DNA of 64,000 bases from Trypanosoma brucei (taxonomy: Eukaryota), in contig CM000208.1 in the NCBI GenBank assembly GCA_000002445.1, forward strand, positions 2,560,001-2,624,000. Reading direction: 5' to 3'. Shown here one piece after another: positions 19,195 to 48,045 of the stretch. The position numbers were made by a program, and so were the translations under genes. The notes under the pieces were generated by a model. It was not told the origin of the DNA, searched no databases, and saw only the letters and a list, made by a program, of their open reading frames with translations. Within the stretch, counting starts at the first letter, position 1, and each line of letters starts with the position of its first letter.

Positions 19195-19196
19195 AG

Positions 19197-19227
<31 letters not shown>

Positions 19228-19248
19228 ACACAAACAAACAAACAAACA
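19195..19248. repeat. (CA)n followed by (CAAA)n simple repeat.
   Basis: cacacacacacacacacacacatacacacacaaacaaacaaacaaac. Confidence 0.9.
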
Positions 19249-19508
19249 GTTACCCTCTGCAATCTCCACGGGCCACTGCGCGCACCTCTCCCGCTGAGAG
19301 GGGTGGGTCAAAAAATAAAACAACAATTCACCCACGAACGATAAATCCGCCATACCGACACATGGCCTGGCACACCTCATCACCCTCGCCTGCAAGAGGG
19401 GACAGAATGAAACATAAAAGGCAAAAGTCTAGCTTCCTGCATCCCTCTGCACGCGAATCAAAGGATCTCCCAAACTATCTCCACCGTGTGCTAAGTGCTA
19501 AACGCCCA

Positions 19509-20966: not shown

Positions 20967-21865
20967 TACCTAAGCTAACTTTACCAGACGGTACCTAAAG
21001 GTATACAGGCAACAAAAAAAAAAGGAGATTGAGATATAGCGACACCCTTTATCACATGGAAATGTGTGTACGCGTGCACACTATTGCAGCACCTGCTTCC
21101 ACATTCATGCCCTTTCCGGCATCATGCCACCCCTCCTCTCACAGATTCTGTGCCAGCCGTCCGACGTTCCAAATACGTATGCAAAAAACACAGCCAAAAA
21201 TTACACCAGAGCAGTAACCGCTCCCATAAAAGAGCGAAGTCAAGTAACGACATAAAACAACGTGGATCAAAATAACCGATGAAAAGAAATCGACCCACTT
21301 AGTGTGCCCCTCTGCGCACATCTTCGGGAGTTGACCGTCCAGCATTTAGTCAGCGGTGAGCGAGTGTCAAAAAACTCGATGGAAAATTTGCTGGTCACAA
21401 AACAAGGTGGGTGCCAGGCATCAGCTGGGAAAGCATAGAGACCATCACCACTTCACAGTGTGCAGAGAGAAAAATACTTCCACGCACTTCGAATATTTCT
21501 CTTGAGACTAGCGATCAGTCCAGACAAAGCATCGGCAGGAAGCAAAAAACACTCAGCGAAACAGCGACAGAAGTAACGTTCAACCATGGCAACCAAATGT
21601 AACATCTTAATAGGATTTGAATAACTTCCAAACACCAGGACCTAACACAAGCACCAAACCTGAGGTGACGCCAACGGAGCCTGCACAAAAAAGGTGTTTA
21701 TACCACCACAATCGATCTAGTGAGGGTCGCGCAGATAACTTTGACGCTAGAAGATGATGCAAAGTACATTCTCCTTCTCCCCCGCGGCAAAGTCTACCGC
21801 GGACACAAAGCACCCTACCAGTAATGGATAACGAAGCCAACGCCTAAACCCCTCAGTTCGTTTGC

Positions 21866-31458: not shown

Positions 31459-34170
31459 TTATAGATAATGCATTGTTGTCCGCAAGTTGCCCCCCAGCGT
31501 TTTCAAATTGGTGAGCGCAGAATACTTACGCCCATACTCCGCTGCGCACTTCAGGGGGAGGGGTAGCGGAAGCGCATCGGTTTTGTTAGGATATAGAAAG
31601 CACATCCCGTACAGGAGAGCCTGTAGCTCTCCAAGATCGAATCCTTTCCGCTTGGAGACGACATACAGCGTAGAGCGGGCGTGACCAAGGGTGCAATTTG
31701 CGCCGGTGAGAAAGAATGCCTCACCAAATTTTTTGTCCGCACCTTCCGCTGTAACGAAACCGCGTGGGGCGTTGCAGTACATCGTGCGGTCATCAGGGGC
31801 TTGGAAAGCAAAGCGCGAGTGCTGATACCGCTGGCCAGCCACAACCGCCCAGCTGCTTCCCTTGAGCACCTCACTCAGGACGTCGACGTCACTCTTGCGG
31901 GCATCAAGCAATTCTCCCTCCGAGGCACAGCCACGCAGAACCAGGTACGCCGACACAGCATTTCCCTTGCTCGTGAAGTGGCTTTTTGCTTCTTGCACGA
32001 ACTCCCCCATCTTCTTAGATATCACCTCGGATGGAGTTGGGGGCCCCCCCTCAGACATCGATGTCGTGTCACAGTCGCTGCCGTCGGCATACAAGGTCTC
32101 CTTCCTGCCATTCACTTGATAATGGTTGCAGTAGGTCGACCACTGTGTGCCCTTCACGTAGAATGACACGAAAGCAACCGCGAAGAACTCCTGCCTGACG
32201 GCGGAAGACTCCGTTGCAACCGAGCGTTGATCCCTCCCAACATCGGCGGCTATTATTAATATTCCGCCGGATGGGTCAGCCTTCGCTAGCTTCGGACAAA
32301 CTTGGTTCACATCTAGGGTCCAATTGAGGCGACCGGTTTTTGCGCATATTTGTTGCGCAACGGCCATGACAATCGACAACTCACGACCTCCCGTTAGGTC
32401 CTTAGCCACGACTTGGCTAAGGGCACCGCCGCCCGACCATGATGCCTTCCACTCTGCATACGGCTCCCTCTCGGGTCGCCGCAGGAACGTCACACCAAAA
32501 ATGTTCTTCCCCAAGCGGCCCTTCGCCTCTTTCAAGCTTCGAACGGGGATGGAATCCCCGAAATTTAGTGGGGCGCTCATGCCATCAAGGTACTTCTTTA
32601 TATTACCGACGACAACAGTTCCCTGCTTGTTGTTTGTTTCGTCATACAATACGACGTCGACTGTCTGTCGCGCACCGGGGTGCCTAAGGTCTTTGAGCTC
32701 CTTCACGAAACCCTGTTGTGAGCTCTCGCTTTGAGGGTTCACTCGTCGAAAACCGTCACCCTTTGGTATCAATATTTCCGGGGACTTCAGCACCTGACCA
32801 TCCACGGAAACGAAATCCTTTCCAAAGGATATTCCGTACGCCTCCAAGAACTTCACGACCCTCCCCCCTTCGTGTTGGATTAGACGTTCAATGACACGCC
32901 TGAGGCGTTGAACACGATCATCAGGAAATATGGAGCACAGCTGCGGAAGTTGCCTTCGGTCTTGCTCATTCAAGGACATCTCGTGCAGCACCTGAGGTGG
33001 GACAAGCACCACCCGCCGCCCGTCGTTCGTCCGGCACTTAAAAAGTGCTTGCTGTGGCTCAATATGAATCCCGTACCGGTCGCGGAAATACTCCACATAT
33101 GTCTGTGACGGGTTTTGTTTGAGGCCCGCTGCATCGCAGGCCTTATTGTCCGTAATATCAAGGACGGTATACATAGTAGCACGGGATTTGTCCACCACAC
33201 TGTATACCTTTTTCTTAATGAAACGCTCGGCGAGCGCTCGTCGGATACTACCGCGTGCTCGCCTCCTTTCATCCTCCATCGCCGTCAAACAGTCCATGGC
33301 CGACGCCACGGGAAGGGAGACGTCCAGCTGCAGGACATCGTTTTCTTTGCCACGGATTACTGTCGAAAACGCCTTCACAGAAACTGCCTCAAATATAGAG
33401 ATGGTTCCTGTGGCATTTTTTTTTCCGTTTTTCAGGTCTACAAACTTTGTACCGACCTTTTCCTCATAACATTCCTGAACGGCACTACCGATCACGCAGT
33501 TCAACTCCATTGTCCTCTCTTTGGGGTTCAACGAACATGATGTCGCCTGCTTCAGCGTAAGCGTGTATGTGTATGTCACCGTTTTCCCCTTCCCTTTGCG
33601 CGCGTTCACGGTCAATTCGTAATTATATTCCTCCACGGGAAGTCTAGTGGGACATATTATCGATGACCCTGTGCAGACGCACATGTTGACGTCAAATGCG
33701 TCTTCGCTACCGCTTTCCTTTCTCATTTTCAACAACATATTCTTCGATGCGAGCACTTTAACCCTTTCCCTGAGGTCGGGTGCCCCATCTTTCATTTCAA
33801 TGGAAAGGGGGTAAATGAAGGCACATTTCCTCGGGTCGATGTACAGAGGGAGGAGGTTTGTCCATGCCTCCACTGGCCGGTCGTACATCCCGGCTTTCGC
33901 AAACGAAACCACCGCATCCCTCTCACGGGTCTGGCCAGTCCGATACGCCCCGTCACCAAAGCCTCCACCACGTCCACCACGGTATCCACCCTCGCCTCCA
34001 CCACGTCCACCACGGTATCCACCCTCGCCTCCACCACGTCCACCACGGTATCCACCCTCGCCTCCACCACGTCCACCACGGCGTCCACCCTCGCCTCCAC
34101 CACGTCCACCACGGCGTCCACCCTCGCCTCCACCACGTCCACCACGGTATCCACGTTCCCAGTCAGACAT
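31459..34170 (-). CDS. AGO1: Argonaute (PAZ/PIWI) protein with an N-terminal RGG-repeat domain. AGO1-like RNAi effector.
   Basis: The N-terminus has six 11-aa GGRGGGEGGYR repeats (33-bp DNA repeats). The C-terminal half has PIWI-like sequence (...LIIAADVGRDQRS..., ...RSTLYVVSKRKG..., ...PLPLKCAAEYGRKYSAL...). The 903-aa length and RGG+PAZ+PIWI layout match T. brucei AGO1 as I recall it. Confidence 0.75.
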   Translation of the reverse strand: MSDWERGYRGGRGGGEGGRRGGRGGGEGGRRGGRGGGEGGYRGGRGGGEGGYRGGRGGGEGGYRGGRGGGFGDGAYRTGQTRERDAVVSFAKAGMYDRPVEAWTNLLPLYIDPRKCAFIYPLSIEMKDGAPDLRERVKVLASKNMLLKMRKESGSEDAFDVNMCVCTGSSIICPTRLPVEEYNYELTVNARKGKGKTVTYTYTLTLKQATSCSLNPKERTMELNCVIGSAVQECYEEKVGTKFVDLKNGKKNATGTISIFEAVSVKAFSTVIRGKENDVLQLDVSLPVASAMDCLTAMEDERRRARGSIRRALAERFIKKKVYSVVDKSRATMYTVLDITDNKACDAAGLKQNPSQTYVEYFRDRYGIHIEPQQALFKCRTNDGRRVVLVPPQVLHEMSLNEQDRRQLPQLCSIFPDDRVQRLRRVIERLIQHEGGRVVKFLEAYGISFGKDFVSVDGQVLKSPEILIPKGDGFRRVNPQSESSQQGFVKELKDLRHPGARQTVDVVLYDETNNKQGTVVVGNIKKYLDGMSAPLNFGDSIPVRSLKEAKGRLGKNIFGVTFLRRPEREPYAEWKASWSGGGALSQVVAKDLTGGRELSIVMAVAQQICAKTGRLNWTLDVNQVCPKLAKADPSGGILIIAADVGRDQRSVATESSAVRQEFFAVAFVSFYVKGTQWSTYCNHYQVNGRKETLYADGSDCDTTSMSEGGPPTPSEVISKKMGEFVQEAKSHFTSKGNAVSAYLVLRGCASEGELLDARKSDVDVLSEVLKGSSWAVVAGQRYQHSRFAFQAPDDRTMYCNAPRGFVTAEGADKKFGEAFFLTGANCTLGHARSTLYVVSKRKGFDLGELQALLYGMCFLYPNKTDALPLPLPLKCAAEYGRKYSALTNLKTLGGNLRTTMHYL
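33957..34160 (-). repeat. 33-bp tandem repeat (x6) encoding the RGG domain of AGO1.
   Basis: The unit ctcgcctccaccacgtccaccacggtatccacc is repeated almost perfectly. Translation GGRGGGEGGYR. Confidence 0.9.
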
Positions 34171-37100
34171 TTTATTTAAATCCTTTTTATTAAGTTGCTT
34201 GTTTGCTTTTTTAGTTGATGACTGAAAGAGAACAAATAGTTTTTATCCTTTTCGCGTTCAACCTGATTACCCGTTCTGTGTTCAAACAAAAGAAAAGATC
34301 AGGTTGAAAGTTTTTTCTGGTAACTTTTTCCCAACAAATAATGAATACTGCTTTTTCATGCCGTTTTTTCCATAATTGATATCACATGTGAGTAACTCTT
34401 AACTGTATATGTCACTCGAACGTCGGGGTTGCTTACCCTATGAATGTGCGCGCTCTGTCGCCGAGTGCCATCATTTTGCTGCTACGAGTAAGTTTCCAGT
34501 CAGACAACATTACGAAAGTACTGCTCCTTCTCTTTGACTCTAACGTTGAGGCTTCTTCACAGACCCTCGTCTAAAATATCGTACACCTGAAACTACCGCA
34601 TGGGTGACCATATATAATACGAGTGTACAGTTGGCGCAAGAAAGAAATTACCACATAAACGTATCTTATTTCGTAAGACGTCGTTCTTCATAGTAATTAC
34701 TTACATGTCAGCCTTGCCATGCGTCAAAAACTGTGCATCCAACTTCTGTCGTCAACTTACCTTGTAATAAGGGTACCAATACATTGTATCCTTGTACAAT
34801 AAGGCCACTAAGTGCAGACCCAAGACTCGAATATGAATAATAAGGGATGAACAGAGCCTACCTGAGTATACTGAGGAACAGTAGCCTTCTAGAAAATACC
34901 TAGGTTACCGTAAAGGTATCAGCACGGCACTTCTATATTGTTCAGTCCAAATATATACCCCTATGACGTTATCACATCAAAGACACGCCCGACGGGGCGC
35001 TACACAGGGTCATCGTACTCATCTTTGAAGAGTGCTAATAACGTAAGTGTAAGGCAATAAACACGCACTTCACAATTATTGCGTGTTTAAACCACCAGTA
35101 TTCCCCGGTGTTTTCCCCGCCCTTCGTTGCCAGTGAATTGAAAGCAATTGTACTGCGTGCTGTTCCTATATTAGTATGTCATTATTGGGATAAGATCTTC
35201 ATAACGAAATCCAAACAATAAGCATTAGTACTCCCAAAACAGCATGCCGAACAAATTGTTAAGGAACAGAAAAGGTCGCATAAATAGTTTTCGAAAAATA
35301 ACAACAGCAATGATATGAAGCGACGTTATCAGTTACGGTGTAAATCTGTCAGTAACAGCTCAAGTGACCCCCGATTACTTGTGCGACGTATCCAACGCCA
35401 ATACTACGGTAACGTAATAGCTAAAATTATTGTGTTCACAACTTTTTCCACCTTTAGATGTTGTACTTGAATGCTTTCAACAATACCGAATAAAAGTATT
35501 TTGAACAACAGAAAAACAGTATAGATAACCATGTCATCGGAAGAGAAGCAGCGATAATCAGTAACAAAATGGACTTGCGACTCCTAACAGAACACTGCGG
35601 CTGGTTAACGGATCCAGTAGTTAAATCAATGCGGGGTACAACAAAGATTTCTTCTAACCACTAACACGATTGTAATGAAAAATAAACAAAAATGTTTCCA
35701 ACGAAAGATGTGAAAAGGAAAAATTCTCAATACCTAATAGGACCATTGAAACACAAGCTCACCATCAAATTCCACGGACTCATAATTCTTAGCATCATTA
35801 GAAGTGATCGATTACACCGTGGACAGCCTGGCAAACATGAAGGGAAAACTGTCCTCCATTCCTTTGTTCTGCCAACCCCCACCTGCCCACAAATACGAAT
35901 ACAACAAAAACCATTAACCGCACACCTCACCGGCGCAACCCGTATGATTCTCGTTGTGAAGAAAACCATCTTCCGCCAAAACAAAGTAACCGATCCCCCG
36001 TGACGGCCGCAAATTACGGGACCGTTTTATCAACTAATCAACCTACGCTTTCAAACAAAACACTCGTAAACAGCAATCACCAAAGCAGGCACTAATATAT
36101 ATATATATATATAGACAGCATGACAGGAGGTTATTAAAATGGCATCACAGTCTCACGAAGCCCTTTTAAGGGAGTGGACAAAAATATACGCATTGTGAGC
36201 CCCCTTTGCCACTAGTAATCCCACACTGCTAAAAAAGTGGAAAACAGTTCGTCACGAGTTGGAGGGAAAGGGGAATTGTCCTTCCCACATGCGTAGCCTA
36301 TACCGGCGACAAAACAATGGGGAGGAAGCAATGTCAAGTTTGTTTAAAACATCCACGGGGGACGTTGTAGCACCCACCCTAAAGGGAATACTGGTAACTA
36401 TGATTTAAAAAAACTCAAGAAGCACCAAGCAGTCACTGGTCACATGTAAATAGTAAGTTCCTAACCTTTTACACCGTATGTCCTCAGCAACCCAATGTCC
36501 CTTTAACAACAGTAAGGTAGAGAAAATCAATAACCAGACAGCTATTTATCATTTTACTTTTGAAAAAATGTGGAGATATGATAATAAGTTCACCAAATGA
36601 TTTAACTATAATTGATATTCCAGATTATTTTTAAATTTGACTCCCAAAGACTCGACTACATGGAGACACATATGTGCAAACGGGCAAATTCCGGGAGATG
36701 CAAACTTCTGTATAAATTTTTGTGATGATTGCTGTAACAATGCTGATGTTCGATGCTTGTGCTATCTCCCTTCGTTCATTTCCAGAGCACAGATCGCAGA
36801 CGGAATGTTCCCTTTATAAACGATACGTTGGCACTACAAGGTACCACAATGGAACATCAACAGGATACTGGTAAAAAACGCAAACGAAAAACGAAAAGTC
36901 ACGGTGGTACGCCCTCCCGTACAAGGCAAACTGGTAGGGGCCTTGAGCAGCCGTTTATACCGTGTATTTGAACCCACAAGCGTACATTGCTAAAATATTA
37001 ACAAGATTAAGCGTCAATGCGGTGAAATCCAGAACCCCTCACAAAGTTGAACCCAGCACTGTCGTAAAGTCCATGCCCTTCAATAAGCATTCATATATTT

Positions 37101-38839
37101 CATGGGCCACAGGGGAGTTAGGACAACAGCAGTCGGCACACAGCAATCAAAGCACGGGCTGTGACAGTGAAGAGAGTGATATACCTGGTGGATCGCATAC
37201 CATCCATGCAAAACGTGGCCTAGGCACAGGAATACTAGACAAAATAAAGCAAAGTTATAAAACTTGCCGGAAGTAGCACAGTGATAATGACAGTACACTC
37301 TCGGGGAAAATATTCACACCAGACAATTTGAAAGCGAACTCCAAGCAACAATGTTCTCATTACATAGATATCAGGCTGCGGGGGTGACATACCGGCAACG
37401 CAATTTTAAAAAAATAGAACAGATGAAAAATATTTAACAAACGACAAAAAACATACAGAAAACAAGTTTCCTATTTTGAGAATTAATATATTTCCCGTTC
37501 AAAACACGCAAAGCCAATTCCGAAAATGGAGCGGCAAAAAAAAAAAATGGAAAATACCTCTCAGGTATCCGGAGCCAAACCACGGCATGTACTCAGTATG
37601 TAAGATGCGTAAATAGCTTTACACGATCGAAATTTGGCAATGCTGTTGTTTTGACTCTATGTAGAAGCGGTCATGTCACAGCAACGGTCAAAAATACTCC
37701 GCGAAACCGATGACCACCAGAACCTCTAAGTGGATTCTGGAAAACAAAAACAAAATCGCCGATTTAAAATAAAAGATGCCCTTTTCGAAATTTTGTTCTA
37801 AAGGCTGCCTGTATCGAGTGAACGGATTTTGTGGCGAGGCTCTTCCCCTTTAGCAGTTCCTTCATAAGCACTCGCGTAGCAAATATCTTAACAGTAGAAT
37901 AATAATGCGTTACCTTCAGAAAGCACAGAAATACTTCATTACCGGGCTCAGAAGGAGATTGCAATTCCACTGAAACCCTTTAGCGGATCCGTAACAAAGA
38001 ATTCGGCGTCTTCCCCTACAACCCCAAAAACGATAACGCAGCACGCCACTATAGTTGCACACCCCCAAAAGGAAGGAAATGACTCTTTCTCCCAAATGAA
38101 TAGGGGAACATGGCTTTACCGGTAATATGCTTCCGAAAATACGGCAAACCAGCATAGACATTTGCTGACACAACACCTCACACAAGGGTAGTCATATGCT
38201 GCGCACCAAAGTGTGCCCCTATGCCGCGACGTTTTAGAATCTTAATTCACTCCGTGCGCACTTCGGTAGCTCAATATTCCAGTGTTTACTCTAAAACAGA
38301 GCTAGCTTCTACAGCAAAGCCAGTCTCCCGTCAGACAGCAAGAAGCCAGAGCAATGCGTTGACGAGAAAACGATGCAAATTTCCTTACACCGACCGATAG
38401 TTTTTTTCGGTAGGATAAAAAAAACTGGTAATATTAAATGGTTCCAGCTTATATTAATGCAGCCCTTCCAAGGCCTTCTCCAACTAAAATATATACAGCC
38501 AATTCTCAAAAAATAGGAGAGGAAACGCAGTGACTCCGTTACTTAACTGCGTATCGAGACGGCTGCGTTGATGGTATCGACAAATGGGTTAACGAAAACC
38601 CCACCACGAGCAACGATCAGCACCGTTGTCACAAACGAAGAATAGCAAAACACATTCATATGAAGAAACCCACGTATCCCACCCGGAACATTTGTCGAGG
38701 GGCAGAGCAACGATAAAACCAACTGTTAGTGACGCCTTGTGTAAAGTGGTTTCGTCATTGTGTTGAAAACAATAAACAGTTGGAAGAAACCAGTATATGA
38801 GAGCGGTAACGCACTCACGACGTATCAGCTAAATAGGGA

Positions 38840-39372
38840 AATGACGATAAACGCAAGGTGATGGCGTTCTCTGCCGCCAACTAACCACAAACCGTTACGC
38901 TTAAGGGGGTGGGCGCACACATACACACACCTCAGCCAGTGAGGTAAACGGGAAATCACTACGTGACACAACGCCAATGAGAGAAAGGGGAATAAGCCCT
39001 GAGGTACAGCTCGCCACTCGCGGTGCACTCGAGGGCGCTGACTTAACACCACACAATCTTTGAAACCGCCTCCTCCTAGACTACAGGAAAGATACCGCGC
39101 ATACCGGTGGTACCAGCGCATAAATGTCCCCATATCACCAGCCACATAGTGACACGACTTTAAGGTTTGCTGAAAAATGCACCTAGCCAGCCTGACTGGG
39201 TGCTGTAATGAAAGTAACTAGGTAGCAATCTTTGCTGGAAATGAAATAGCACGCTCCTAGCAGACAGATGGAGAAAGCAAACAACATTATCCACAACATC
39301 GCAACCTTTCAACTTCCGCTCCGGCTCAGAAAAATGGTACCCTACATGCTTCGACATCAAAGGGCGAAACGA
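38840..39372. repeat. 533-bp dispersed repeat, copy B. It lies inside the 12-kb gene-free region.
   Basis: Same orientation as copy A, which is 17 kb away. The flanking sequence is unrelated. No poly(A) tail or target-site duplication is evident. Confidence 0.9.
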
Positions 39373-41281
39373 CGTACGCCACGCGGCGCAGTCGGCAAGA
39401 GAATCTTTGGCGCTACCCCGCAGCCCCTCGCCACTCTGGAACCTTCGCAGCGCCGTGCTAAGTGGAAGTGCACTGGCAGGCCCCTTTCCCCCCTCTCGGG
39501 GATCAAGCACCAACAAGTGGAAGGAGGTCGGCAGCCCGCACTCCGCCCCCCACCCCTCTCCCTCGTGCAGGCACTTGGAACGCTTACTGAACTATGCCGT
39601 TGCCCTCCTGTTAAGAGTGGGGTGGTCTTTCAACCAATTCAACGTTCACCACCTTCCCACACCCCAGAGGGTATTAGGTGCGAAGATCAGCCGATACCAG
39701 CCGCGCCGCCAAGTGGCACACGTGTCAGCTATGTTTTCCGGACTGATTTCGTTCCTTTTGCGTTCGTTTTTGGTGTTTGACTCTTCGACTTGTAGAAAGG
39801 CCTCTTACGTAGCAGGATCCCTCCGCACACCCGGTGGTCGCGGAACACAGGCACAACGTCTCTGCCGCAGATCCCAAAGGCGATAATTTTCTGATTTATC
39901 ACTTTGTCAACGCGCCCTGTTTGTCTGCAAATGGACACGCACTCGTACCGACACTTTGAGCATCCCCCTAGTTCTCAGTACTATTTCCTCCGAGAAAGGA
40001 TAACTATGAATGCTTCTGCCGCGGTTAGTTTGTGGCTGGTCTCCACGTTGCTGGCCTTTGGCAAGGAGTGTTAGCCCCCTCTTGACCCAGCCACGAACCC
40101 ACAATGCACACCCTGCGCTAGGCTTGGTTATGCACCTACGCTTGCGTCGAAAGGACCCTTGTGTGCCACTGTGCGGGAGCTGTATGTTTCGTTGTTTGTG
40201 GCTTATCTACTCCTATGTTGTCTTTTGGCTGGGTCAATCCGCATTTGGATTGCATTGCTTTACCGTTAGTGACGGGGTCTTTCTTTGGCCGCATTTTCAT
40301 CCAAGAAAATCCGAATTTGACTGCATTTTCCTCCGCGAGACCCACTGAGCCATTTCTTTCAGTCAGAAAGAGTTTTTGACTACGGCGCTTCGTCAGCACG
40401 CGAAAGTTGACGCCACACCAGCCCTTTCCGCCCGTGGAACAAACAATGTGCGGACCCCACATCCCAGGGATGTTCCACCCGTTGTTCTTCGAATAATTGA
40501 GTGCCTCTGGACTCCGATTGTTCTGGCGCTACGGAGGGATCGGTCACCAAGTTGGCGCATGTCATTACTAAGTGGCGTATGGGATGGTGTTGCCTCGGCG
40601 TTCCCTCGTCGGCTCCACCGGCTGCTGAGTGGCAAGGCTGAACTACGGCCCGCCTGCTAACTTTGCGGGCCGATCTTATCAAGTATGCCCATTTCGAAGC
40701 GTTTCTCTTGCCGCCTTCGGGAATCGAGCAGAGTCATATGAAGGCGTCCGCACCTGCGCTGCGGGGTGGTTCCGTTCAGCATTTGTTTGTGGGGACACTT
40801 ATCCTCTTTTCCATTTCGGCCACCTCTTCCCCCGTAGAGAGGGACTGCTGGCGACGTCCTGCCCGACGTCCTGCCCGACGTCCTGCACCCCATCGTTTCA
40901 CTTCTAATAATAGTTACAAAAGTGTGTGTCTGTACGGCAGTGCATATTTCTCCAGTCCCCAATCGCTTCGGTTGCTTTTACTCTTCTGAAGCACGGTTCA
41001 GAGGCGGTTGCTCAGTGCACTTCCATGGAAATAGCGCGCACAGACAGGATATCAGTTGTTTGTCTGAGCTGACGCGGGCATGAAACAGTATCATGCGGTG
41101 CCTTTTGACGGTAGTGACCAAATGTGTCAAGGCCAGCCTCGGGGAATCGTTTTGCTGTTCCTGTTGTGGCTCCTACTTTCCGTGGGGAGGGTAAGCGGAA
41201 GCGAACGTGTCAGTTCAAGGAATTGGAGAAGGTGCACTGTTACGCGGACAAATTCACGTCCGGGAATACTCCAACTAACAA

Positions 41282-41381
<100 letters not shown>

Positions 41382-43415
41382 CTAACCCTTTTTCCCCCTG
41401 CCATGTGCCACACTGACAAAAGGGAGGGAGGGGAACTGTTAAACGGCAACCTTGACTAGGTTTAAGCCCCGAATTTCGCGTCGCCTATTCGCTACGCGCG
41501 ACTACTGTGTGTGTTAGAATTATCGTATTCTTTGTTCATTAATTACTTTTTTTTTTCTGCCTGTGTGTAGAGGATTTTTCGTGCGTTATGAGGGACGGTT
41601 CAGTGAAATGCACTTTCGATTGTTCTGTCGTCGCCGACATTTTTGTCTTCATCGGTGAGGTGTTTTTACCTAATTGGTTGCCCTACTGGTTCCTATATAA
41701 TGCGATGCCGCCCATGAAATATTGTGCTCTTTTCATATTTTTTTAACGTTAATCTTTTGCGACCTTTGCGAAGAACAAGAGCAACTTCTAATGGTAAACA
41801 GAACGATTCCACAACAAAGAAAAGGAAATACAAATAGGCGTAAAAGTTTGATTTCTGTAAGAGAACCAAAAAAAAACACAGAAAGAAAAGGGTGTAAAAA
41901 CAACTGATGTAAGAAAGAGAGAGAAATCTGCAGCAAGTACTGAGGGGGGTAATGGGGGAAAAAACGGAGACGACGCGCCGGCATTTCGAACCTCCTTTGA
42001 GTTTGCGGTTGCTTACGTGTGTGTGTGTGTGTCCCGTTTGCCTACACTCCCCGCCCCCGGGTGCGTAAATAAGGCGACCCCCCCCCCGTCCCTACATCAG
42101 CGAACTGCGCAGGAAGAACCCATGTATATACTTCTCCTCCTTACTGGTTGTGGATGAAAGGATCGTCACCTCTCAGGTTTGCATTGCGCAAGATCGTACC
42201 AGCTTGACGCCTTTCCGAGTGTGCATTGCATGTGCCAAATTACCCTTACGGTGCGGACCGTCGCGTTTGGGGCGAGATTCCTGTAGGCGTCTTGTGAAAA
42301 AGCTGGCCCCGTCCAAGTGTTCGACGGCGCGTCCCGTAATACGACAAATGTGAACAGAAGGGAAGGCTACCGGTAGTGGCCGGGTTCGTGAACCATTAGG
42401 AGTCGTTCCTGAAAATGGCGCGCCAGCGCAGCAACCCATTCACTAGAGGTTTGGATGAATGAAGAACTCTACCTGTACAGGGGTTGTGGATTTAGTGTGT
42501 GACAACATAACTCTCCAACGGCAGTTGACACATAAAACTCAGTTCCTCGTAAATGGCAGCTGCGCAAGGTGCTCCCCTTAATTCGCCGCTTGTGTGATGC
42601 GCTTTGCGGCATCAAACCAATAATGGGGGGAAATGTATTTTCCGTCCTGTATATGGACCCGTTTTTAAGTAAGGATGAACTTTTTAAGGTGCGAAACACC
42701 GGCGTAAATTTCCTCTCTATGACTCCAACATCCTCCAAGCTTCCTCGGATCACTTGGTGTGGGAGCATGGCCCCTAACCTCTTTGCAAAGCTCGGCCAAA
42801 ATGTATGGCCTTGCGTTGCTTCATCTCCGGATGATTCGTGTAAAAAGAAATCTGCGTGTCTTCTATAGGGTTGAAATCAGTTAATCTCCTTGATTCGTGT
42901 CCAGGCGTACGTGTGTGTGTGTGGATTAAAAGCGGCTGTTCATGCGTATGCTTTTTCTTTTTCAAATTAAGGAAGAAAGGGGAAGACATTTTTTAAAACC
43001 ACGCGGAGAAGCGGTGAAATACTAGAAAAAGGCTCCTCCGTTCCACAAAAGTTTGTTGCATATTTTAATGCAATCAGAAAACTGGTGTATCAGTGGTGTG
43101 GAAATCAACCATCAGCATTCCAAACCAAAGATCCGCATCCTTGCAAGTTGTGGTGCCGATTTTGACGCAGCATTCCATCGGACTGCCTTTTTTCTTTTCC
43201 TAACGCACCACTTACCAATTTCCAAAGGTAAAAAAACCACAAAAAATCAAATGGCTGCTAAAAGGGCTTTAACTCCGACTTGTTTGCTTTATCGTGGCAA
43301 AACACGAACAAGCAACACGGTGTCAGTCATCGGAAAGGTGTTGCCAGCGACGGCGCCACTCCGACAGAAACGAAGCAGTAGCGGCTCGTTAGGCAGAGAC
43401 GCTCTGGCGCTCGGT

Positions 43416-43488
43416 TCCTCCCTGGCGCAGTCGGCAGCGCGTTAGGCTGTTAACCTACAGGTCGTTGGTTCGAATCCAACGGGAGGAG
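43416..43488 (+). tRNA. tRNA-Asn (anticodon GTT)
   Basis: Hand-folded cloverleaf. Acceptor TCCTCCC pairs with GGGAGGA. D-arm GCGC/AGTCGGCA/GCGC. Anticodon stem TTAGG/CCTAC around loop CTGTTAA. T-arm GTTGG/TTCGAAT/CCAAC. Discriminator G. Followed by a TTTTT Pol III terminator. Confidence 0.8.
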
Positions 43489-43556
43489 TCTTTTTGCTGC
43501 CCACCTCCGAAAATTCTGGAGGTCACTTTCGCTATAAAGGAAGAACTGAAGCTGTT

Positions 43557-43628
43557 GCAAAAACAGTGGACGAGTAGGGGTTTGAACCCTAGGCCTCCTG
43601 TATGCAAAACAGGCGCTCTACCACTGAG
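43557..43628 (-). tRNA. tRNA-Ala (anticodon TGC)
   Basis: The revcomp reads GGGCGTGTAGCTCAGTGGTAGAGCGCCTGTTTTGCATACAGGAGGCCTAGGGTTCAAACCCCTACTCGTCCA. It has a G3:U70 Ala identity pair, anticodon loop TTTGCAT, and a T-loop TTCAAAC. A downstream TTTTT terminator lies on the minus strand. Confidence 0.85.
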
Positions 43629-43740
43629 CTACACGCCCTTCAACACGGCTAAATCCGTAATATCACATGAGGTTGTTTAGCAACCGTTGTGTACCATCAC
43701 GTAAAGTGGTGTGCTGTGATTGGCGAGAGGGCGTGGCGGT

Positions 43741-43813
43741 GCTCCAGTGGCCTAATGGATATGGCTTTGGACTTCTAATCCAAAGGTTGCGGGTTCGAGT
43801 CCCGTCTGGAGTA
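43741..43813 (+). tRNA. tRNA-Arg (anticodon TCT)
   Basis: Acceptor GCTCCAG pairs with CTGGAGT (G1:U72). D-arm GCCT/AATGGATA. Anticodon stem TTGGA/TCCAA with loop CTTCTAA. T-arm GCGGG/TTCGAGT/CCCGT. TTTT terminator downstream. Confidence 0.75.
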
Positions 43814-43871
43814 CGTTTTCGTGTCCAAAATTATTTCATATTTGTTCGTTTCTAGTTGTTTGCCGGAGAGC

Positions 43872-43943
43872 AGCCTTCCTAGCTCAGTGGTAGAGCGCAC
43901 GGCTTTTAACCGTGTGGTCGTGGGTTCGATCCCCACGGAAGGC
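43872..43943 (+). tRNA. tRNA-Lys (anticodon TTT)
   Basis: GCCTTCCTAGCTCAGTGGTAGAGCGCACGGCTTTTAACCGTGTGGTCGTGGGTTCGATCCCCACGGAAGGCG. Perfect 7-bp acceptor. Anticodon stem CACGG/CCGTG with loop CTTTTAA. T-loop TTCGATC. T-run downstream. Confidence 0.85.
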
Positions 43944-44029
43944 GCTTTTCTACACTGCCGCTTAAGCTAATTTCTTTGCTGGGTACGACATGTAAGCGTT
44001 AGAGGCTTGCTTGGAGGAGGGTTGGCGGT

Positions 44030-44102
44030 GCCCCCGTAGCCCAATGGATAAGGCGTTCGCTTCCTAAGCGAAAGATTGCGGGTTCGAGTCCCGCCGGAGG
44101 TA
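44030..44102 (+). tRNA. tRNA-Arg (anticodon CCT). One acceptor-stem mismatch (C4:A69), so it may be a variant or pseudo-tRNA.
   Basis: GCCCCCGTAGCCCAATGGATAAGGCGTTCGCTTCCTAAGCGAAAGATTGCGGGTTCGAGTCCCGCCGGAGGTA. Anticodon stem TTCGC/GCGAA with loop TTCCTAA. T-arm GCGGG/TTCGAGT/CCCGC. TTTT downstream. Confidence 0.65.
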
Positions 44103-46332
44103 GTTTTCCGGTGCAAAAACTTGCGGATATATGAGATGGTCGCGCGAACGTGGCAGAAGCCGCAGCGGCGTTTGGATTTGGCGGGTCCTTTTTGCGGTGA
44201 ATGCTTGCGGGTTCATAAAACATCCGCGTTGAACCCCGTTTACGCGTGTCGAGGCCGGGGCATACAAATATGACGCCACTTCTTTGGCGCGGCTCCTCGA
44301 GGCTTGGTTGGTTACGCAAGCTCCCAAGCCCGCGGCGATTCGTTGGAAATTTGAGGAGAGGCCCCGATGTGTTCGGCGCTGGCGTTGAGGCCATTGCGAC
44401 GGAAGCTCTACCGGATTTTTGTGTTAAAGGCGCCACAAGTCCGCAAAACCCACTTCACCCTCTGTCGATGCGTTGTTGCGCCAACCAGGGTGGCACAGGG
44501 TGGAGTGGGGGGGGGGGGGGAGAAAAAGATAACCTGTTTTTCGGCGTGTGGCCACACAGTCATGGAGTTTCTTGTACTCAAGCCACGCTTTGCCTTATGA
44601 ATTCTTTCTTTAGGCCCTTGGTTTGTACGATGTCCACTGGCAGGGACAGGGGTTGAAGAAGTCACAACCATAGGAGATGACGACGGTTATTATCATTATT
44701 ATTATTATTTTTTTTTTTTGCGGGGGGCTTTGAAGCGCAGAGACACACACCAATGAGCACGTGTATGCGGTTTCCCCCAAAACTTTCCCCATCCGAGTGT
44801 GTTGCTCCGACGGATTGCCTTACATTACTGAAATTCACGACCGTAAGGGTGAGTCCCAGCCGGCTTCAGCGGCCGCACTGGGGGAGGGGGGAGAGATTAA
44901 GTTGGTCGGGTTTTCTCTTTCCACGCCATCGGCAAACAGCAAAATGGGCAACAGGGGTTAGGATACTCTGCAGAGACGGATCGTACGGGAAAGAGGGGGG
45001 TGACACATTTGCCTTCTAATTCAACACTTGACAATGGCTACGGGAAATTGGGACCATTTTGATCCTCTTGTTCCGCCGAACAACAAAACCAGAAATAACT
45101 ACCCGTTGCCACCTTCAGCGGCTACATATATATATATATTTATGTAAATTTATATGAAGCACACACCGCAGCAACCGGGGCTGTGCCGCTCGGTTGCCCA
45201 TCCACTTTTTTGTGCGTGGGCAACTGGGAAATGGAAGGGAAGGGAGGGGAAGGGTGATGTGTGGAGGAGAGCTCAGGGGATGCCATTCCTTCATCCATCA
45301 AGGGGACTGATGTAATATTTGAAAATGTTACGCGAACCTTCCCACGGCTGCCTCCTAACCTTCCGCCACGTTCTCATCTGCCATAGGCAAATGAAGGTTG
45401 CGGAGCCAAACGAGCGGGGCAGTGCCCTTTACGTAGTCTTTTATCTTGAGCAGACGGAACCGGAGGACGGGAAGGGAACCGTTACACGCGGGACGCGTAG
45501 TTGTGTGCCACAGGCCGTCATTGCCGTTGATATCATCTGCTCCATCTCGGCCATTCCATGTCTAGCCATCAGAGACGACCCCGACCCTCTCTCCACGCGC
45601 TTCTCACTTGCGAGACAAATGACACCGTTTCAAGCTTCTTAGCTATTCACATGGTTCCGATACAGGGGTGCCGAGCCGACTCTCCTCCTCTTTCCGCCGT
45701 GGCCCAAGTTTCGTATCACTTCCATCGAAGTACATGGGTTCGCACTTCGGCCTCGCGTGGATAAATGCCTCTCTCGTCTTAAAAAAAAAAAGAATTGCTT
45801 TGTTTCCTCTCCCCGCGGAAGCGAATATGGGGTGTCCCTTGCTTCGTCATGCAACCTCCTTGACAGGCGGCGGTTCTTTCAAGCTTTACTCTTCGCAAGG
45901 GGGAAAACGTACATGATGATATGATCATTCAAGGACGCAAGAAAAAAGGGGACACCCACACATATACGTATATATACATATTTTTGTACATGTGTCAGCG
46001 CATCTGCATATCATGTCTTGTGGTAAAAACGATGTGCTACAGCTGTTGGGCCTTCCCTGCGAGGAGGAAGTGTACGCTCGTAATTTCAACCCCTCATTTG
46101 TCTACTGAGCACGCACTCATGAGAGGAATGGAAGGAAAGGGGGGGGGGGGGAAAGTAAAACTATGAGGCGCACGGCACATACACGCAGGAGTAGAAATAA
46201 CGGCCACACGTTTATGCTTGACGTCGTCACTGCGACAATACCGTCAGCTTTGGGCCAGCAGAAAAACAACACTCCTTCACCACGCGTGTCCACTTTAACC
46301 GCGGCAAAAAAAGTTCTGCACCTGTTGATGGG

Positions 46333-48045
46333 TTAACGAGGTGATGAAAAGTGCCTCAGAAGTTCTCTTAGTTGCTCAGAACGTACGGCGTCGTGCGTGT
46401 AACGCTGGAGGTCTCCTAAGATCTTTGCAAGCACCTCATCGCGAGTCCTTCCTGACCATCCCCAATTGTCGTATTGCCTCCGGAGCTCCGAATCCTTGAG
46501 AAACCGAAACGCAATTGATTCCCCCAACTCGCCCTCTTCACTGCCCCCTTCCAATGGCGTGACGCCTTCGCCCCTCATGTCGGAGTCTTGTACATCACTT
46601 CCCACTGCTTCTGGGGTTGCCAACAACTCACCTTCATCCAAAAATCTTTCTTTGGGGGCACACGGGCTCTTCTTCCCTTCTTCCTCATCCTCATCCTTCC
46701 ACTTCGCACCATCGGAGAAACTTACATCGACAACCGGCGAATGCTTCTGCAGCGCAAGTCGCACAAGATGCAAAACACTCTGCTTGTTTTTCGTCTTCAA
46801 AGTGTTCACCTCAGCGGACTGATATCTTTTCGGTTGGTACTGCATCACGTTTCCACCATAGAAAAGATTATATTCTTGAAAAAGTTCGTGGCGACAGAGA
46901 TCTCCACAGGTGGGACGCTGCTGAGGGAAAAAGGCAAGGCAGCTGGATATCAAATCAATCCATTTCTGCTGCCGATCCCGCGTTGTGTGCAATCGCCACT
47001 GCTCGTTCATCATTCCAACCAATCGTGAGGGACGTGGAGCGCTCCGGAGGAGATAATTTTGAGCGTTTCCCACAGGCATGAATCTTCGTATATCATCATG
47101 GCTAGGTGTCCCAACAATGTTAAGAATCACTTCTAGTTGTGTGCTAGCAAGTTGTCCATCCCACACCCCTTGTTCATTAAGGGCGGATTCAACATTAAAC
47201 AAAGCTTTCCCTGTAACCATTTCGAAAAGGATGCAACCCACCGACCACACATCAATCGACGGCTCCCCTCCCGAGACATTGGTAACGATCTCAGGTGGCC
47301 TGTAATAGCGCGTGCAGACATAAAAGGTGTCACTTGCTTGGGCGTCCCGTGCAAGGCCAAAATCGGCTATGAGCGCCGTTGATTTGTATGGATCTTTACC
47401 ATGCAAACGAACCAAAATATTTTCTGGCTTTATATCTCTGTGGACGATATTACACTTGTGCAAAAAATCCAAACCAAAACATATCTGAAATGCAAAAACA
47501 ACAGTGACCAGCTCAATGAATTCATCTGTCATGGCCGGTTTACTGCCTGAAGATGATACGTGCTTTATAAAATAGAGCAAGTCACCCTTCATCAGAGGCA
47601 TCACTATATGGAGACTAAATTCGTCCTCTCCGCTCAAGCGATTCACCATAGAAAGGACTTTATCATGGTATTTGGAAAGCTCGTCATTGCGGCTTTGATT
47701 AGGGTATTGAGGCCCTGCGGCGTCGAAGCGGCGGGCGTCCACCAGTGTCGTTGCCCCGTCCCTACCACCTTCATCCTGAGAGAGCACGTTGTCAGCACCG
47801 CTTGGGGTCGCAAACATGTCAAAGTACCCAATCACGTGAGGATGAGCGTCATGGAGGAAAGACATTATATCTATCTCTCTAACGAGGCGGGCGCTTTCCT
47901 GGTTTACAAAGCGCGAAGGGATTGTCTTCACGGCAACATGTTCTCCTGTGAAACGATCTACGTGCTCGCTCACAATACCGAATCCACCCTTGCCAACGAC
48001 CGCAACGTGCTCATACCGCCAAGCGAGTAACGGGACATTGTGCAT
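46333..48045 (-). CDS. Serine/threonine protein kinase, CMGC-like (MAPK/CDK-related) catalytic domain with long inserts.
   Basis: Kinase subdomains are present: VGKGGFGIV...VAVK, HRDIKPENILV, DFGLARD, YVCTRYYRPPE, DVWSVGCIL. Confidence 0.8.
   Translation of the reverse strand: MHNVPLLAWRYEHVAVVGKGGFGIVSEHVDRFTGEHVAVKTIPSRFVNQESARLVREIDIMSFLHDAHPHVIGYFDMFATPSGADNVLSQDEGGRDGATTLVDARRFDAAGPQYPNQSRNDELSKYHDKVLSMVNRLSGEDEFSLHIVMPLMKGDLLYFIKHVSSSGSKPAMTDEFIELVTVVFAFQICFGLDFLHKCNIVHRDIKPENILVRLHGKDPYKSTALIADFGLARDAQASDTFYVCTRYYRPPEIVTNVSGGEPSIDVWSVGCILFEMVTGKALFNVESALNEQGVWDGQLASTQLEVILNIVGTPSHDDIRRFMPVGNAQNYLLRSAPRPSRLVGMMNEQWRLHTTRDRQQKWIDLISSCLAFFPQQRPTCGDLCRHELFQEYNLFYGGNVMQYQPKRYQSAEVNTLKTKNKQSVLHLVRLALQKHSPVVDVSFSDGAKWKDEDEEEGKKSPCAPKERFLDEGELLATPEAVGSDVQDSDMRGEGVTPLEGGSEEGELGESIAFRFLKDSELRRQYDNWGWSGRTRDEVLAKILGDLQRYTHDAVRSEQLRELLRHFSSPR

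What the first reader, a model, noticed from the sequence alone, without database searches (positions are those of the whole stretch)
43416..44102. Compact mixed-orientation cluster of five tRNA genes with a head-to-head Ala/Arg pair
Five tRNAs sit within 690 bp. Asn-GTT (+), Arg-TCT (+), Lys-TTT (+) and Arg-CCT (+) are antisense to the surrounding array. Ala-TGC (-) is divergent from Arg-TCT, with 112 bp between their 5' ends. Each tRNA is followed by a T-run, which is the Pol III terminator. In trypanosomes, Pol III small-RNA genes (U-snRNAs, 7SL) are typically placed divergently ~100 bp upstream of a tRNA whose A/B boxes act as their promoter. The region upstream of tRNA-Asn (about 43050-43320, minus strand) and downstream of Arg-CCT (44110-44600) should be scanned for such a partner. 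Arg-CCT has a C4:A69 acceptor mismatch and may be a variant.
Basis: partly seen in the sequence, partly recalled or inferred. Interest (0 to 1): 0.5.

Follow-up and report, generated by a model that had tools for sequence, protein, structure and literature searches.

The report
Known trypanosome five-tRNA gene cluster
This is the already catalogued five-tRNA gene cluster on Trypanosoma brucei chromosome 10, which sits at a published stop site for RNA polymerase II between two gene arrays, and no hidden small-RNA gene lies beside it.

Summary
Each is followed by a T4 or T5 run. The Ala/Arg-TCT spacer is 102 bp, not 112 bp.

The window is T. brucei TREU927 chromosome 10, 2,560,001-2,624,000. The published coordinates of locus "chr10-III" match at an offset of exactly 2,560,000. 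In strain Lister 427 the same five genes overlap the annotated RNA polymerase II termination region sTTR_16 and are bound by the RNA polymerase III-associated factors.

The order and orientation are the same in T. cruzi, and the core is shared with T. theileri and L. major.

The proposed divergent small-RNA partner is not supported. Rfam finds nothing in the flanks, and B boxes occur only inside the tRNAs. The one free companion site is interrupted by four T-runs within 91 nt and is not conserved. The flanks diverge 4.6% between T. b. brucei and T. b. gambiense, against 0.8% background and 0% in the tRNAs.

Head-to-head tRNA pairs at 72-142 bp are routine in this genome. The Arg-CCT C4:A69 mismatch is real and specific to the T. 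brucei lineage, but this is the only Arg-CCT gene and it is expressed.

Verdict: ordinary and already known.

The parts
43416..43488 (+). tRNA-Asn (GTT); T5 terminator at 43491-43495
   Evidence: ARAGORN; RF00005 at 63.9 bits; A box TGGCGCAGTCG and B box GGTTCGAATCC; fully paired acceptor stem and T5 run at +3; published as Tb10_tRNA_Asn_1 at 2603416..2603488. A second Asn-GTT gene exists on chromosome 8.
43567..43638 (-). tRNA-Ala (TGC), the only gene of the cluster in the same sense as the Pol II array; T5 terminator at 43559-43563 (minus strand)
   Evidence: ARAGORN; RF00005 at 68.6 bits; G3:U70 is present, and a U6:U67 mismatch is conserved in every species examined; B box GGTTCAAACCC; it is the sole Ala-TGC gene in T. 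brucei.
43639..43740 (.). 102-bp spacer between the 5' ends of the divergent Ala-TGC and Arg-TCT genes
   Evidence: Length taken from the gene coordinates. The sequence is not conserved among species. The length is 87 bp in T. cruzi and 131 bp in T. theileri, and 76 bp in L. major. Predicted folding is unremarkable, with z-scores of -1.3 and -0.75. The 200-bp bin 43600-43799 shows 10 differences between T. b. brucei and T. b. gambiense.
43741..43813 (+). tRNA-Arg (TCT); T4 terminator at 43816-43819
   Evidence: ARAGORN; RF00005 at 68.6 bits; G1:U72 wobble shared with Arg-CCT in all species; sole Arg-TCT gene in T. brucei.
43873..43944 (+). tRNA-Lys (TTT); T4 terminator at 43946-43949
   Evidence: ARAGORN; RF00005 at 72 bits; sole Lys-TTT gene in T. 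brucei; the acceptor stem is fully paired here, whereas T. cruzi and T. theileri have a U4:U69 mismatch.
44030..44102 (+). tRNA-Arg (CCT) with a G1:U72 wobble and a C4:A69 mismatch; T4 terminator at 44104-44107
   Evidence: ARAGORN; RF00005 at 62.9 bits. The C4:A69 mismatch occurs only in T. b. brucei and T. b. gambiense; T. cruzi and T. conorhini have C4:G69 and T. theileri has U4:G69. It is the sole Arg-CCT gene in T. brucei. tRNA-Arg(CCT) is detected by tRNA sequencing, with a bloodstream-form-specific pseudouridine at position 32 (PMC9283944).
43230..43320 (-). The one position where a divergent Pol III partner could sit (95-110 bp upstream of tRNA-Asn); tested, and no gene was found
   Evidence: T-runs lie at +19 (T4), +58 (T4), +75 (T6) and +85 (T7) measured from 43320. 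No Rfam hit at E <= 10. No conservation with T. cruzi. The 200-bp bin 43200-43399 has 10 differences from T. b. gambiense. The fold z-score is -2.8 for the 91-nt stretch and 0.03 for the 58-nt core.
46333..48045 (-). Protein kinase gene, the last large ORF of the Pol II unit that runs into the cluster
   Evidence: ORF list; Pkinase domain; 98% identical to a T. b. gambiense kinase. The orthologous kinase lies next to the same tRNAs in T. cruzi, T. theileri and T. conorhini.
34171..46332 (.). 12.2-kb stretch without a large ORF that contains the cluster: 2.2 kb on the kinase side and 9.2 kb on the Argonaute side
   Evidence: ORF lists; none of ten ORFs from this stretch has a Pfam hit. GC skew turns positive only across 41.5-45.5 kb. 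A perfect (CA)48.5 repeat lies at 41283-41379. The tRNAs are annotated as overlapping sTTR_16 in Lister 427.
31459..34170 (-). Argonaute gene (RGG repeats, PAZ and Piwi domains), the first large ORF after the gap
   Evidence: ORF; PAZ and Piwi domains. A PAZ/Piwi gene occupies the same position in T. theileri.

Best explanation
This is tRNA locus 'chr10-III' of Trypanosoma brucei. It holds five independent RNA polymerase III genes, each with its own internal A-box and B-box promoter and its own T4 or T5 terminator. Between them they supply the cell's only genes for tRNA-Ala(UGC), tRNA-Arg(UCU), tRNA-Lys(UUU) and tRNA-Arg(CCU), plus one of its two tRNA-Asn(GUU) genes. The cluster lies between two RNA polymerase II gene arrays that run in the same direction. 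It coincides with the published termination region sTTR_16. Pol II arriving from the HSP83/ABC/kinase side stops there, and transcription starts again further on, towards Argonaute. The step I infer rather than show is causality: that the Pol III factor complexes and the nucleosome-free DNA over the tRNA genes form the roadblock. There is no companion small-RNA gene, and the head-to-head Ala/Arg-TCT pair is simply two ordinary tRNA genes sharing an upstream region.
For: Gene identity: ARAGORN and Rfam agree on all five genes. A and B boxes are present in each gene, and B boxes occur nowhere else in 64 kb. Every gene has a T-run terminator. Locus identity: the published coordinates and 3' trailers match the window at an offset of exactly 2,560,000. 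Sole-copy status comes from the full T. brucei tRNA gene list. Selection: there are 0 substitutions in 363 tRNA sites between T. b. brucei and T. b. gambiense, against 4.6% in the adjacent 100 bp. Conservation: the order and orientation are the same in T. cruzi. The Arg-CCT/Lys/Arg-TCT/Ala core is present in T. theileri, and Arg-CCT/Arg-TCT/Ala is present in L. major. Boundary role: all large ORFs are on the minus strand, the ORF-poor gap surrounds the cluster, and the GC skew reverses locally. Supplemental Table S8 of PMC8559703 lists all five genes as overlapping sTTR_16 and bound by all eight RNAPIII/TTR-associated factors. The same paper states that termination regions between head-to-tail units often coincide with Pol I or Pol III genes that may block Pol II.
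Against: Nothing contradicts the gene identities. For the roadblock idea, T. vivax has no tRNA within 10 kb downstream of the orthologous kinase. T. conorhini shows only Arg-CCT within the 1 kb available. The boundary, if it is conserved, may therefore not depend on this cluster. The chromatin and termination evidence comes from the literature on another strain and was not tested here. The exact Pol II restart position inside the 9.2-kb gap is unknown to me.
Confidence: 0.93

Rival explanations
1. A so far unannotated Pol III small RNA (snRNA-like, vault-like or other) lies in the flanks and uses the A and B boxes of tRNA-Asn, or of another tRNA in the cluster, as its upstream promoter, as U6, U3 and 7SL do.
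For: The arrangement exists in this organism: 95-109 bp separates U6, U3 and 7SL from their tRNAs. tRNA-Asn has a free upstream side. The 91-nt stretch 43230-43320 (minus strand) folds somewhat better than shuffled sequence, with z = -2.8. Rfam cannot detect families that have not been described, and I could not establish where the T. brucei vault RNA gene lies.
Against: No Rfam hit appears at gathering threshold in 64 kb or at E <= 10 in 42000-45500. T4, T4, T6 and T7 runs lie within 91 nt of the expected start, and T4 is a working terminator length in this very cluster. There is no conservation with T. cruzi, although the tRNA beside it is 100% identical. This is the most diverged part of the region between T. 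b. brucei and T. b. gambiense, at 4.6% against 0.8%. The other four tRNAs have no room upstream. The known snRNA and 7SL genes are listed elsewhere in the genome. The published locus map lists no small RNA here.
Confidence: 0.03
2. The Arg-CCT gene is a decaying or defective variant because of its C4:A69 mismatch and G1:U72 wobble.
For: The mismatch is real, and this gene has the lowest Rfam score of the five at 62.9 bits. The fully paired state C4:G69 is found in T. cruzi and T. conorhini. AGG codons could in principle also be read by tRNA-Arg(UCU); this rests on general wobble rules and was not tested.
Against: It is the only Arg-CCT gene in the genome. The tRNA is detected and modified in vivo. 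The gene is bound by the Pol III-associated factors. It is identical in T. b. gambiense, while its flanks have diverged. G1:U72 is shared by both Arg tRNAs in all species examined. Single acceptor-stem mismatches also occur in Ala-TGC (all species), Lys-TTT (T. cruzi, T. theileri) and Arg-TCT (T. cruzi).
Confidence: 0.05
3. The tRNA genes only happen to lie in a Pol II termination region. Termination is set by chromatin marks (base J, H3.V, H4.V) or by other sequence, not by the Pol III genes.
For: Most annotated termination regions in T. brucei (133 of 154) have no Pol III gene. T. vivax lacks tRNAs at the syntenic position. tRNA clusters in trypanosomatids are mostly non-syntenic.
Against: Twenty termination regions coincide with tRNA or snRNA genes, and a specific factor set is enriched there. 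This particular cluster has kept its position beside the kinase from T. brucei to T. cruzi, even though its flanks are not conserved at all.
Confidence: 0.25

Closest known systems
T. brucei TREU927 tRNA locus chr10-III (Tb10_tRNA_Asn_1, Ala_1, Arg_1, Lys_1, Arg_2; Padilla-Mejia et al. 2009, PMC2695483), which is Lister 427 Chr10_core 2645688-2646379 in sTTR_16 (Staneva et al. 2021, PMC8559703)
   Same: It is the same object. The anticodons, strands, gene coordinates (offset 2,560,000) and 3' trailers are identical.
   Different: Nothing differs. The Lister 427 table prints the Asn anticodon as 'ggt', which appears to be a typing error for gtt.
Syntenic clusters: T. cruzi (contigs Tc8001 and 4041; here L004) and L. 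major chr33-I (Arg-CCT, Arg-TCT, Ala-TGC)
   Same: Same genes and same relative orientations, including the divergent Arg-TCT/Ala-TGC pair, and in Trypanosoma the same neighbouring kinase.
   Different: The spacers differ: Ala/Arg-TCT is 87 bp in T. cruzi, 76 bp in L. major, 131 bp in T. theileri and 102 bp here. L. major lacks Lys-TTT and Asn at this locus. T. theileri has a second, inverted Ala-TGC in place of Asn.
Trypanosomatid divergent tRNA/small-RNA transcription units (U6/tRNA-Thr, U3/tRNA-Arg, 7SL/tRNA-Lys; Nakaar et al. 1994, as cited in PMC3273796)
   Same: A tRNA gene faces away from a neighbour about 100 bp upstream. The Ala/Arg-TCT spacer of 102 bp falls close to the 95-109 bp of those units.
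   Different: Here both partners are complete tRNA genes with their own internal promoters. The spacer length is not held constant between species, and no small-RNA gene is present.
tRNA genes as chromatin boundaries or roadblocks for Pol II (yeast tDNA barrier elements; from general knowledge and as discussed in PMC8559703)
   Same: Pol III factor-bound, nucleosome-depleted tRNA genes coincide with the end of a Pol II transcription unit.
   Different: In trypanosomes the unit that ends is a polycistron of many genes, and the site also carries kinetoplastid-specific marks (base J, H3.V, H4.V). Causality has not been shown for this locus.

Membership tests
Eukaryotic nuclear tRNA genes (Pol III type 2 promoter) | Cloverleaf sequence and structure that matches the tRNA covariance model | tested here: met
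   RF00005 scores of 62.9-72 bits against a gathering score of 29, over the full model length, for all five genes. ARAGORN gives the same calls.
Eukaryotic nuclear tRNA genes (Pol III type 2 promoter) | Internal A box (TRGCNNARNGG) and B box (GGTTCRANNCC) at tRNA spacing | tested here: met
   There are five exact B boxes, all inside the tRNAs. Each pairs with an A box with a gap of 32-33 nt; four A boxes are exact and the Asn A box has one mismatch.
Eukaryotic nuclear tRNA genes (Pol III type 2 promoter) | T-run terminator just downstream, and no encoded CCA | tested here: met
   T4 or T5 runs start 2-4 nt after the discriminator base, and the trailers do not begin with CCA. The trailers match those in Table S2 of PMC2695483.
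Eukaryotic nuclear tRNA genes (Pol III type 2 promoter) | Expression and Pol III occupancy | not testable with these tools
   Literature only. All five genes are bound by the RNAPIII/TTR factor set in Lister 427, and tRNA-Arg(CCT) is detected by tRNA sequencing.
Trypanosomatid divergent tRNA/small-RNA Pol III unit | A small-RNA gene on the opposite strand with its 5' end about 95-110 bp upstream of the tRNA | tested here: not met
   No non-tRNA Rfam family at gathering threshold or at E <= 10. Only tRNA-Asn has free space upstream, and no gene-like feature is found there.
Trypanosomatid divergent tRNA/small-RNA Pol III unit | A transcribed body of at least 60 nt free of Pol III terminators | tested here: not met
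   T4 at +19, T4 at +58, T6 at +75 and T7 at +85, measured from the expected start.
Trypanosomatid divergent tRNA/small-RNA Pol III unit | Sequence conservation of the small RNA among trypanosomes | tested here: not met
   No conservation with T. cruzi upstream of an identical tRNA-Asn. Nothing outside the tRNAs is conserved with T. theileri. Divergence from T. b. gambiense is highest in this stretch.
Pol II termination region between head-to-tail polycistronic units (sTTR) | Flanking protein-coding arrays on the same strand, with a non-coding interval between them | tested here: met
   All ORFs of at least 200 aa that carry identified protein domains are on the minus strand on both sides, and the gap runs from 34171 to 46332.
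Pol II termination region between head-to-tail polycistronic units (sTTR) | Enrichment of H3.V, H4.V and base J, loss of Pol II, and a start region downstream | not testable with these tools
   Literature annotation only: the five tRNAs overlap sTTR_16. The local reversal of GC skew at 41.5-45.5 kb is compatible with this but is weak evidence.

The most novel reading that the evidence does not exclude
The only tRNA-Arg(CCU) gene of T. brucei encodes a C4:A69 mismatch that its relatives lack. This could mean the transcript is repaired after transcription. C4-to-U editing would give U4:A69, as happens in some plant mitochondrial tRNAs (recalled from memory, not tested here), or A69-to-I editing would give C4:I69. 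Alternatively the mismatch could be used for regulation, in line with the stage-specific pseudouridine 32 reported for this tRNA. A second, more modest possibility is that the steep rise in substitutions next to the tRNA genes (4.6% against 0.8%) reflects mutagenesis linked to transcription or polymerase collisions at trypanosome Pol III / Pol II boundaries in general.
Probability: 0.05. Interest if true: 0.55.

Novelty: already known. Interest (0 to 1): 0.1.

Why it matters
It matters little as a discovery, because the genes, their layout, their synteny and their overlap with a Pol II termination region are all published. The check has three uses. It removes a plausible-sounding lead, the hidden snRNA or 7SL partner. 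It shows that head-to-head tRNA pairs about 100 bp apart are routine in this genome. It also records that four of the five genes are the sole source of their tRNA, so the locus is probably essential, and any experiment on the Pol II boundary must supply these tRNAs from elsewhere.

Tried and rejected
1. I ran Rfam at gathering threshold on the whole window and on six related loci, and at E <= 10 on 42000-45500 and 40800-42100. Only tRNAs were found, plus sub-threshold noise: antisense-tRNA 'Plastid-ycf2' hits, and a SCARNA2 hit caused by the GU repeat.

2. I tested a U5-like reading of 43241-43298 (minus strand), which has a CCCUUUUAGC stretch and a GAUUUUUUG Sm-like stretch. I rejected it: there is no Rfam U5 hit, the fold is no better than shuffled sequence (z = 0.03), and there are three substitutions against T. 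b. gambiense, one of them in the Sm-like stretch. The real U5 gene is listed at chr10:1906846-1906907.

3. I looked for orphan 'tRNA-like' A/B box elements across 34.2-46.3 kb with one mismatch allowed. Apart from two spurious pairings that borrow box-like matches within or beside the tRNA genes themselves, there was a single pair, at 41414-41469. I estimate about 0.3 such pairs by chance. It has no tRNA-model hit.

4. I searched the flanks for conserved non-coding blocks by blastn against T. theileri and T. vivax. Only the tRNA block and low-complexity repeats matched.

5. I scanned ten ORFs from the gap against Pfam and found no hits.

6. I tried to locate the T. brucei vault RNA gene in the literature. 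The key paper (PMC6816085) is not held, and the papers that are held give no locus. The supplement of PMC3273796, which holds its small-RNA list, is also not held.

7. I fetched Leishmania and Phytomonas kinase loci. They carry no tRNAs within 10 kb, so the Leishmania comparison rests on the published table.
Full report
**Observation.** ARAGORN finds exactly five tRNA genes in the 64-kb window, all within 687 bp:

| tRNA | Strand | Coordinates |
|---|---|---|
| Asn-GTT | + | 43416-43488 |
| Ala-TGC | - | 43567-43638 |
| Arg-TCT | + | 43741-43813 |
| Lys-TTT | + | 43873-43944 |
| Arg-CCT | + | 44030-44102 |

The Rfam tRNA model independently matches the same five places over its full length at 62.9-72 bits, against a gathering score of 29. 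No other Rfam family reaches threshold anywhere in the window. Each gene has an A box and a B box at tRNA spacing, and the B-box consensus occurs nowhere else in the window. Each gene is followed within 4 nt by a T4 or T5 run. All large ORFs are on the minus strand, so four tRNAs are antisense to the protein-coding array and Ala is sense.

**What and where it is.** The neighbouring proteins are an Argonaute (RGG repeats, PAZ, Piwi), a protein kinase, an ABC-type ATPase and HSP90. The kinase is 98% identical to a T. brucei gambiense protein. Supplementary Table S1 of Padilla-Mejia et al. 2009 (PMC2695483) lists these genes for T. brucei chromosome 10:
- Tb10_tRNA_Asn_1 GTT 2603416..2603488
- Ala_1 TGC 2603567..2603638 (complement)
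- Arg_1 TCT 2603741..2603813
- Lys_1 TTT 2603873..2603944
- Arg_2 CCT 2604030..2604102

These equal the window coordinates plus exactly 2,560,000. The 3' trailers in their Table S2 are the ones in the window. The window is thus TREU927 chromosome 10, 2,560,001-2,624,000, and the finding is the published locus 'chr10-III'. That paper lists no snRNA or 7SL gene in this locus. It does place U1, U3 and 7SL on chromosome 8, U6 on chromosome 4, and U4 and U5 at 1.87-1.91 Mb of chromosome 10. U2 is a chromosome 2 gene.

The same table shows that this cluster holds the only Ala-TGC, Arg-TCT, Lys-TTT and Arg-CCT genes of the genome. Only Asn-GTT has a second copy, on chromosome 8.

**Conservation.**
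- T. b. gambiense has the identical five genes.
- T. cruzi has all five in the same order and orientation, directly downstream of the orthologous kinase.
- T. theileri has Arg-CCT, Lys, Arg-TCT and the divergent Ala between the kinase and Argonaute. In place of Asn it has a second, inverted Ala-TGC 1.4 kb further on, with near-identical flanks.
- T. conorhini shows Arg-CCT next to the kinase, with no other tRNA in the 1 kb left on the contig.
- T. vivax has no tRNA within 10 kb downstream of the kinase.
- L. major chromosome 33 has Arg-CCT, Arg-TCT and the divergent Ala-TGC, as already shown in Fig. 5C of PMC2695483.

Outside the tRNA genes nothing is detectably conserved with T. theileri, T. 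vivax or T. cruzi.

**The partner hypothesis.** From the published coordinates, the spacers between a tRNA and a divergent small-RNA gene are 97 (U6), 96 (U3) and 109 (7SL) in T. brucei. In L. major they are 97, 97, 98, 95 and 109. Five lines of evidence count against a partner here.

1. Only tRNA-Asn has free space upstream. Ala and Arg-TCT face each other, and Lys and Arg-CCT have another tRNA 59 and 85 bp upstream.
2. A Pol III transcript starting at the expected position (43306-43320, minus strand) would meet T4 at +19, T4 at +58, T6 at +75 and T7 at +85. T4 is the terminator length of three genes in this same cluster.
3. A permissive Rfam scan (E <= 10) of 42000-45500 gives nothing beyond the tRNAs and noise. 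The stretch does not fold exceptionally.
4. The stretch is not conserved in T. cruzi, although the adjacent tRNA-Asn is 100% identical.
5. Between T. b. brucei and T. b. gambiense, the substitution rate falls with distance from the tRNAs:

| Region | Substitutions / sites | Rate |
|---|---|---|
| tRNA genes | 0 / 363 | 0% |
| Non-tRNA, within 100 bp | 24 / 524 | 4.6% |
| 100-300 bp | 12 / 400 | 3.0% |
| 300-1000 bp | 21 / 1389 | 1.5% |
| Non-coding beyond 1 kb | 61 / 7446 | 0.82% |
| Coding sequence (kinase and ABC) | 32 / 3768 | 0.85% |

The near-versus-far Fisher test gives p = 5e-10. The flanks are the least constrained part of the region, which is the opposite of what a functional RNA gene would show.

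The region downstream of Arg-CCT lies on the 3' side of a tRNA, so it could not hold a divergent partner in any case. It has no A/B boxes and no Rfam hit.

**The head-to-head pair.** T. brucei has ten divergent tRNA-tRNA pairs with spacers of 72-142 bp (median 95.5). L. major has fifteen, thirteen of them at 72-85 bp. The Ala/Arg-TCT spacer is 102 bp here, 87 bp in T. cruzi, 131 bp in T. theileri and 76 bp in L. major, and its sequence is not conserved. The pair is an ordinary instance of a common layout, and its closeness to 100 bp in T. brucei is coincidental.

**The Arg-CCT mismatch.** The acceptor stem is G1:U72, C2:G71, C3:G70, C4 x A69, C5:G68, C6:G67, G7:C66. G1:U72 is shared by both Arg tRNAs in every species examined. 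At 4:69, T. cruzi and T. conorhini have C:G and T. theileri has U:G, so C:A is specific to the T. brucei lineage. Single acceptor-stem mismatches are frequent in this cluster:
- U6:U67 in Ala-TGC in all species
- U4:U69 in Lys-TTT of T. cruzi and T. theileri
- A6:C67 in Arg-TCT of T. cruzi

This is the sole Arg-CCT gene. The tRNA is detected by tRNA sequencing with a bloodstream-form-specific pseudouridine 32 (PMC9283944). The gene is occupied by the Pol III-associated factors. A pseudogene reading is therefore unlikely. Post-transcriptional repair of the pair is not excluded, but nothing points to it.

**How it works.**
- Shown here or taken from the cited literature: there are five independent Pol III genes with internal promoters and T-run terminators. 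They sit in a 12.2-kb ORF-poor interval between two arrays on the same strand, the kinase ending at 46333 and Argonaute starting at 34170. Ten ORFs from that interval have no Pfam domain. GC skew reverses only across 41.5-45.5 kb.
- Published: in Lister 427 the five genes (Chr10_core 2645688-2646379) all overlap the single termination region sTTR_16 and carry all eight RNAPIII/TTR-associated factors (PMC8559703, Table S8). That paper and PMC5359979 state that termination between head-to-tail units often coincides with Pol III genes, which are nucleosome-depleted and may block Pol II.
- Inferred: the factor-bound tRNA genes are the cause of termination here, and Pol II restarts somewhere in the 9.2 kb before Argonaute. 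The absence of the cluster at the syntenic site of T. vivax leaves room for the alternative that termination is set by other marks.

**Verdict.** The feature is an already described tRNA locus at an already annotated Pol II boundary. Interest is low. The only things not already in the literature I could read are side observations: the substitution gradient around the tRNA genes, and the lineage-specific mismatch in a sole-copy tRNA.

Noticed in passing
window 42400-45100 compared with L001 (T. b. gambiense): Substitutions between the two subspecies rise steeply towards the tRNA genes: 0% inside them, 4.6% within 100 bp, 3.0% at 100-300 bp, 1.5% at 300-1000 bp, and 0.8% further away and in coding sequence (Fisher p = 5e-10). 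This resembles the raised mutation rate reported for tRNA gene flanks in other eukaryotes (from memory). Only one locus was tested.
   Followed up: partly
window 43567-44102; L003, L004 and L008 orthologues: Single acceptor-stem mismatches are common in these sole-copy tRNAs: Ala-TGC has U6:U67 in all species, Lys-TTT has U4:U69 in T. cruzi and T. theileri, Arg-TCT has A6:C67 in T. cruzi, and Arg-CCT has C4:A69 only in T. brucei.
   Followed up: yes
window 43719-43740 and 44008-44029: The two Arg tRNA genes of T. brucei share the 7-nt leader TGGCGGT immediately upstream of position +1, with looser similarity back to about -22. tRNA-Asn has TGGCGCTCGGT in the same place. The leaders are unrelated in T. 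cruzi and T. theileri. This could be a gene-conversion tract or a lineage-specific upstream element.
   Followed up: no
window 41283-41379: A perfect (CA)48.5 microsatellite, which reads (TG)n on the coding strand, lies 2 kb beyond the tRNA cluster in the Pol II direction. Its length differs from T. b. gambiense. GT-rich tracts have been linked to Pol II start regions in T. brucei (from memory, not checked).
   Followed up: no
window 34171-43415: The 9.2 kb between the tRNA cluster and the Argonaute start has no ORF carrying a Pfam domain. The 34.5-38 kb part is AT-rich, at 39-43% GC. It is presumably the Pol II restart region and the Argonaute 5' region. Its divergence from T. b. gambiense is as low as in coding sequence, about 0.8%.
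   Followed up: partly
L002 (T. vivax) 11701-21701; L008 (T. conorhini) 4881-5933; L003 (T. theileri) 12902-14487: The cluster is not invariant. T. vivax has no tRNA within 10 kb downstream of the orthologous kinase. T. conorhini shows only Arg-CCT in the 1 kb available. T. theileri carries an inverted duplicate of Ala-TGC, with near-identical flanks, in place of Asn.
   Followed up: partly
published coordinates of L. major and T. brucei tRNA genes: Divergent tRNA-tRNA pairs have a sharp lower limit of 72 bp between their 5' ends in both species. In L. major, 13 of 15 pairs lie at 72-85 bp. This suggests a minimum footprint for two back-to-back Pol III initiation complexes.
   Followed up: partly
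window 34000-34154: A 33-bp tandem repeat (4.7 copies, 96% matches) encodes the RGG-rich N-terminus of the Argonaute protein.
   Followed up: no
window 44500-44520 and 44680-44719: A G-run of about 14 and an (ATT)n tract followed by T12 lie 400-600 bp downstream of Arg-CCT, between the cluster and the kinase gene.
   Followed up: no
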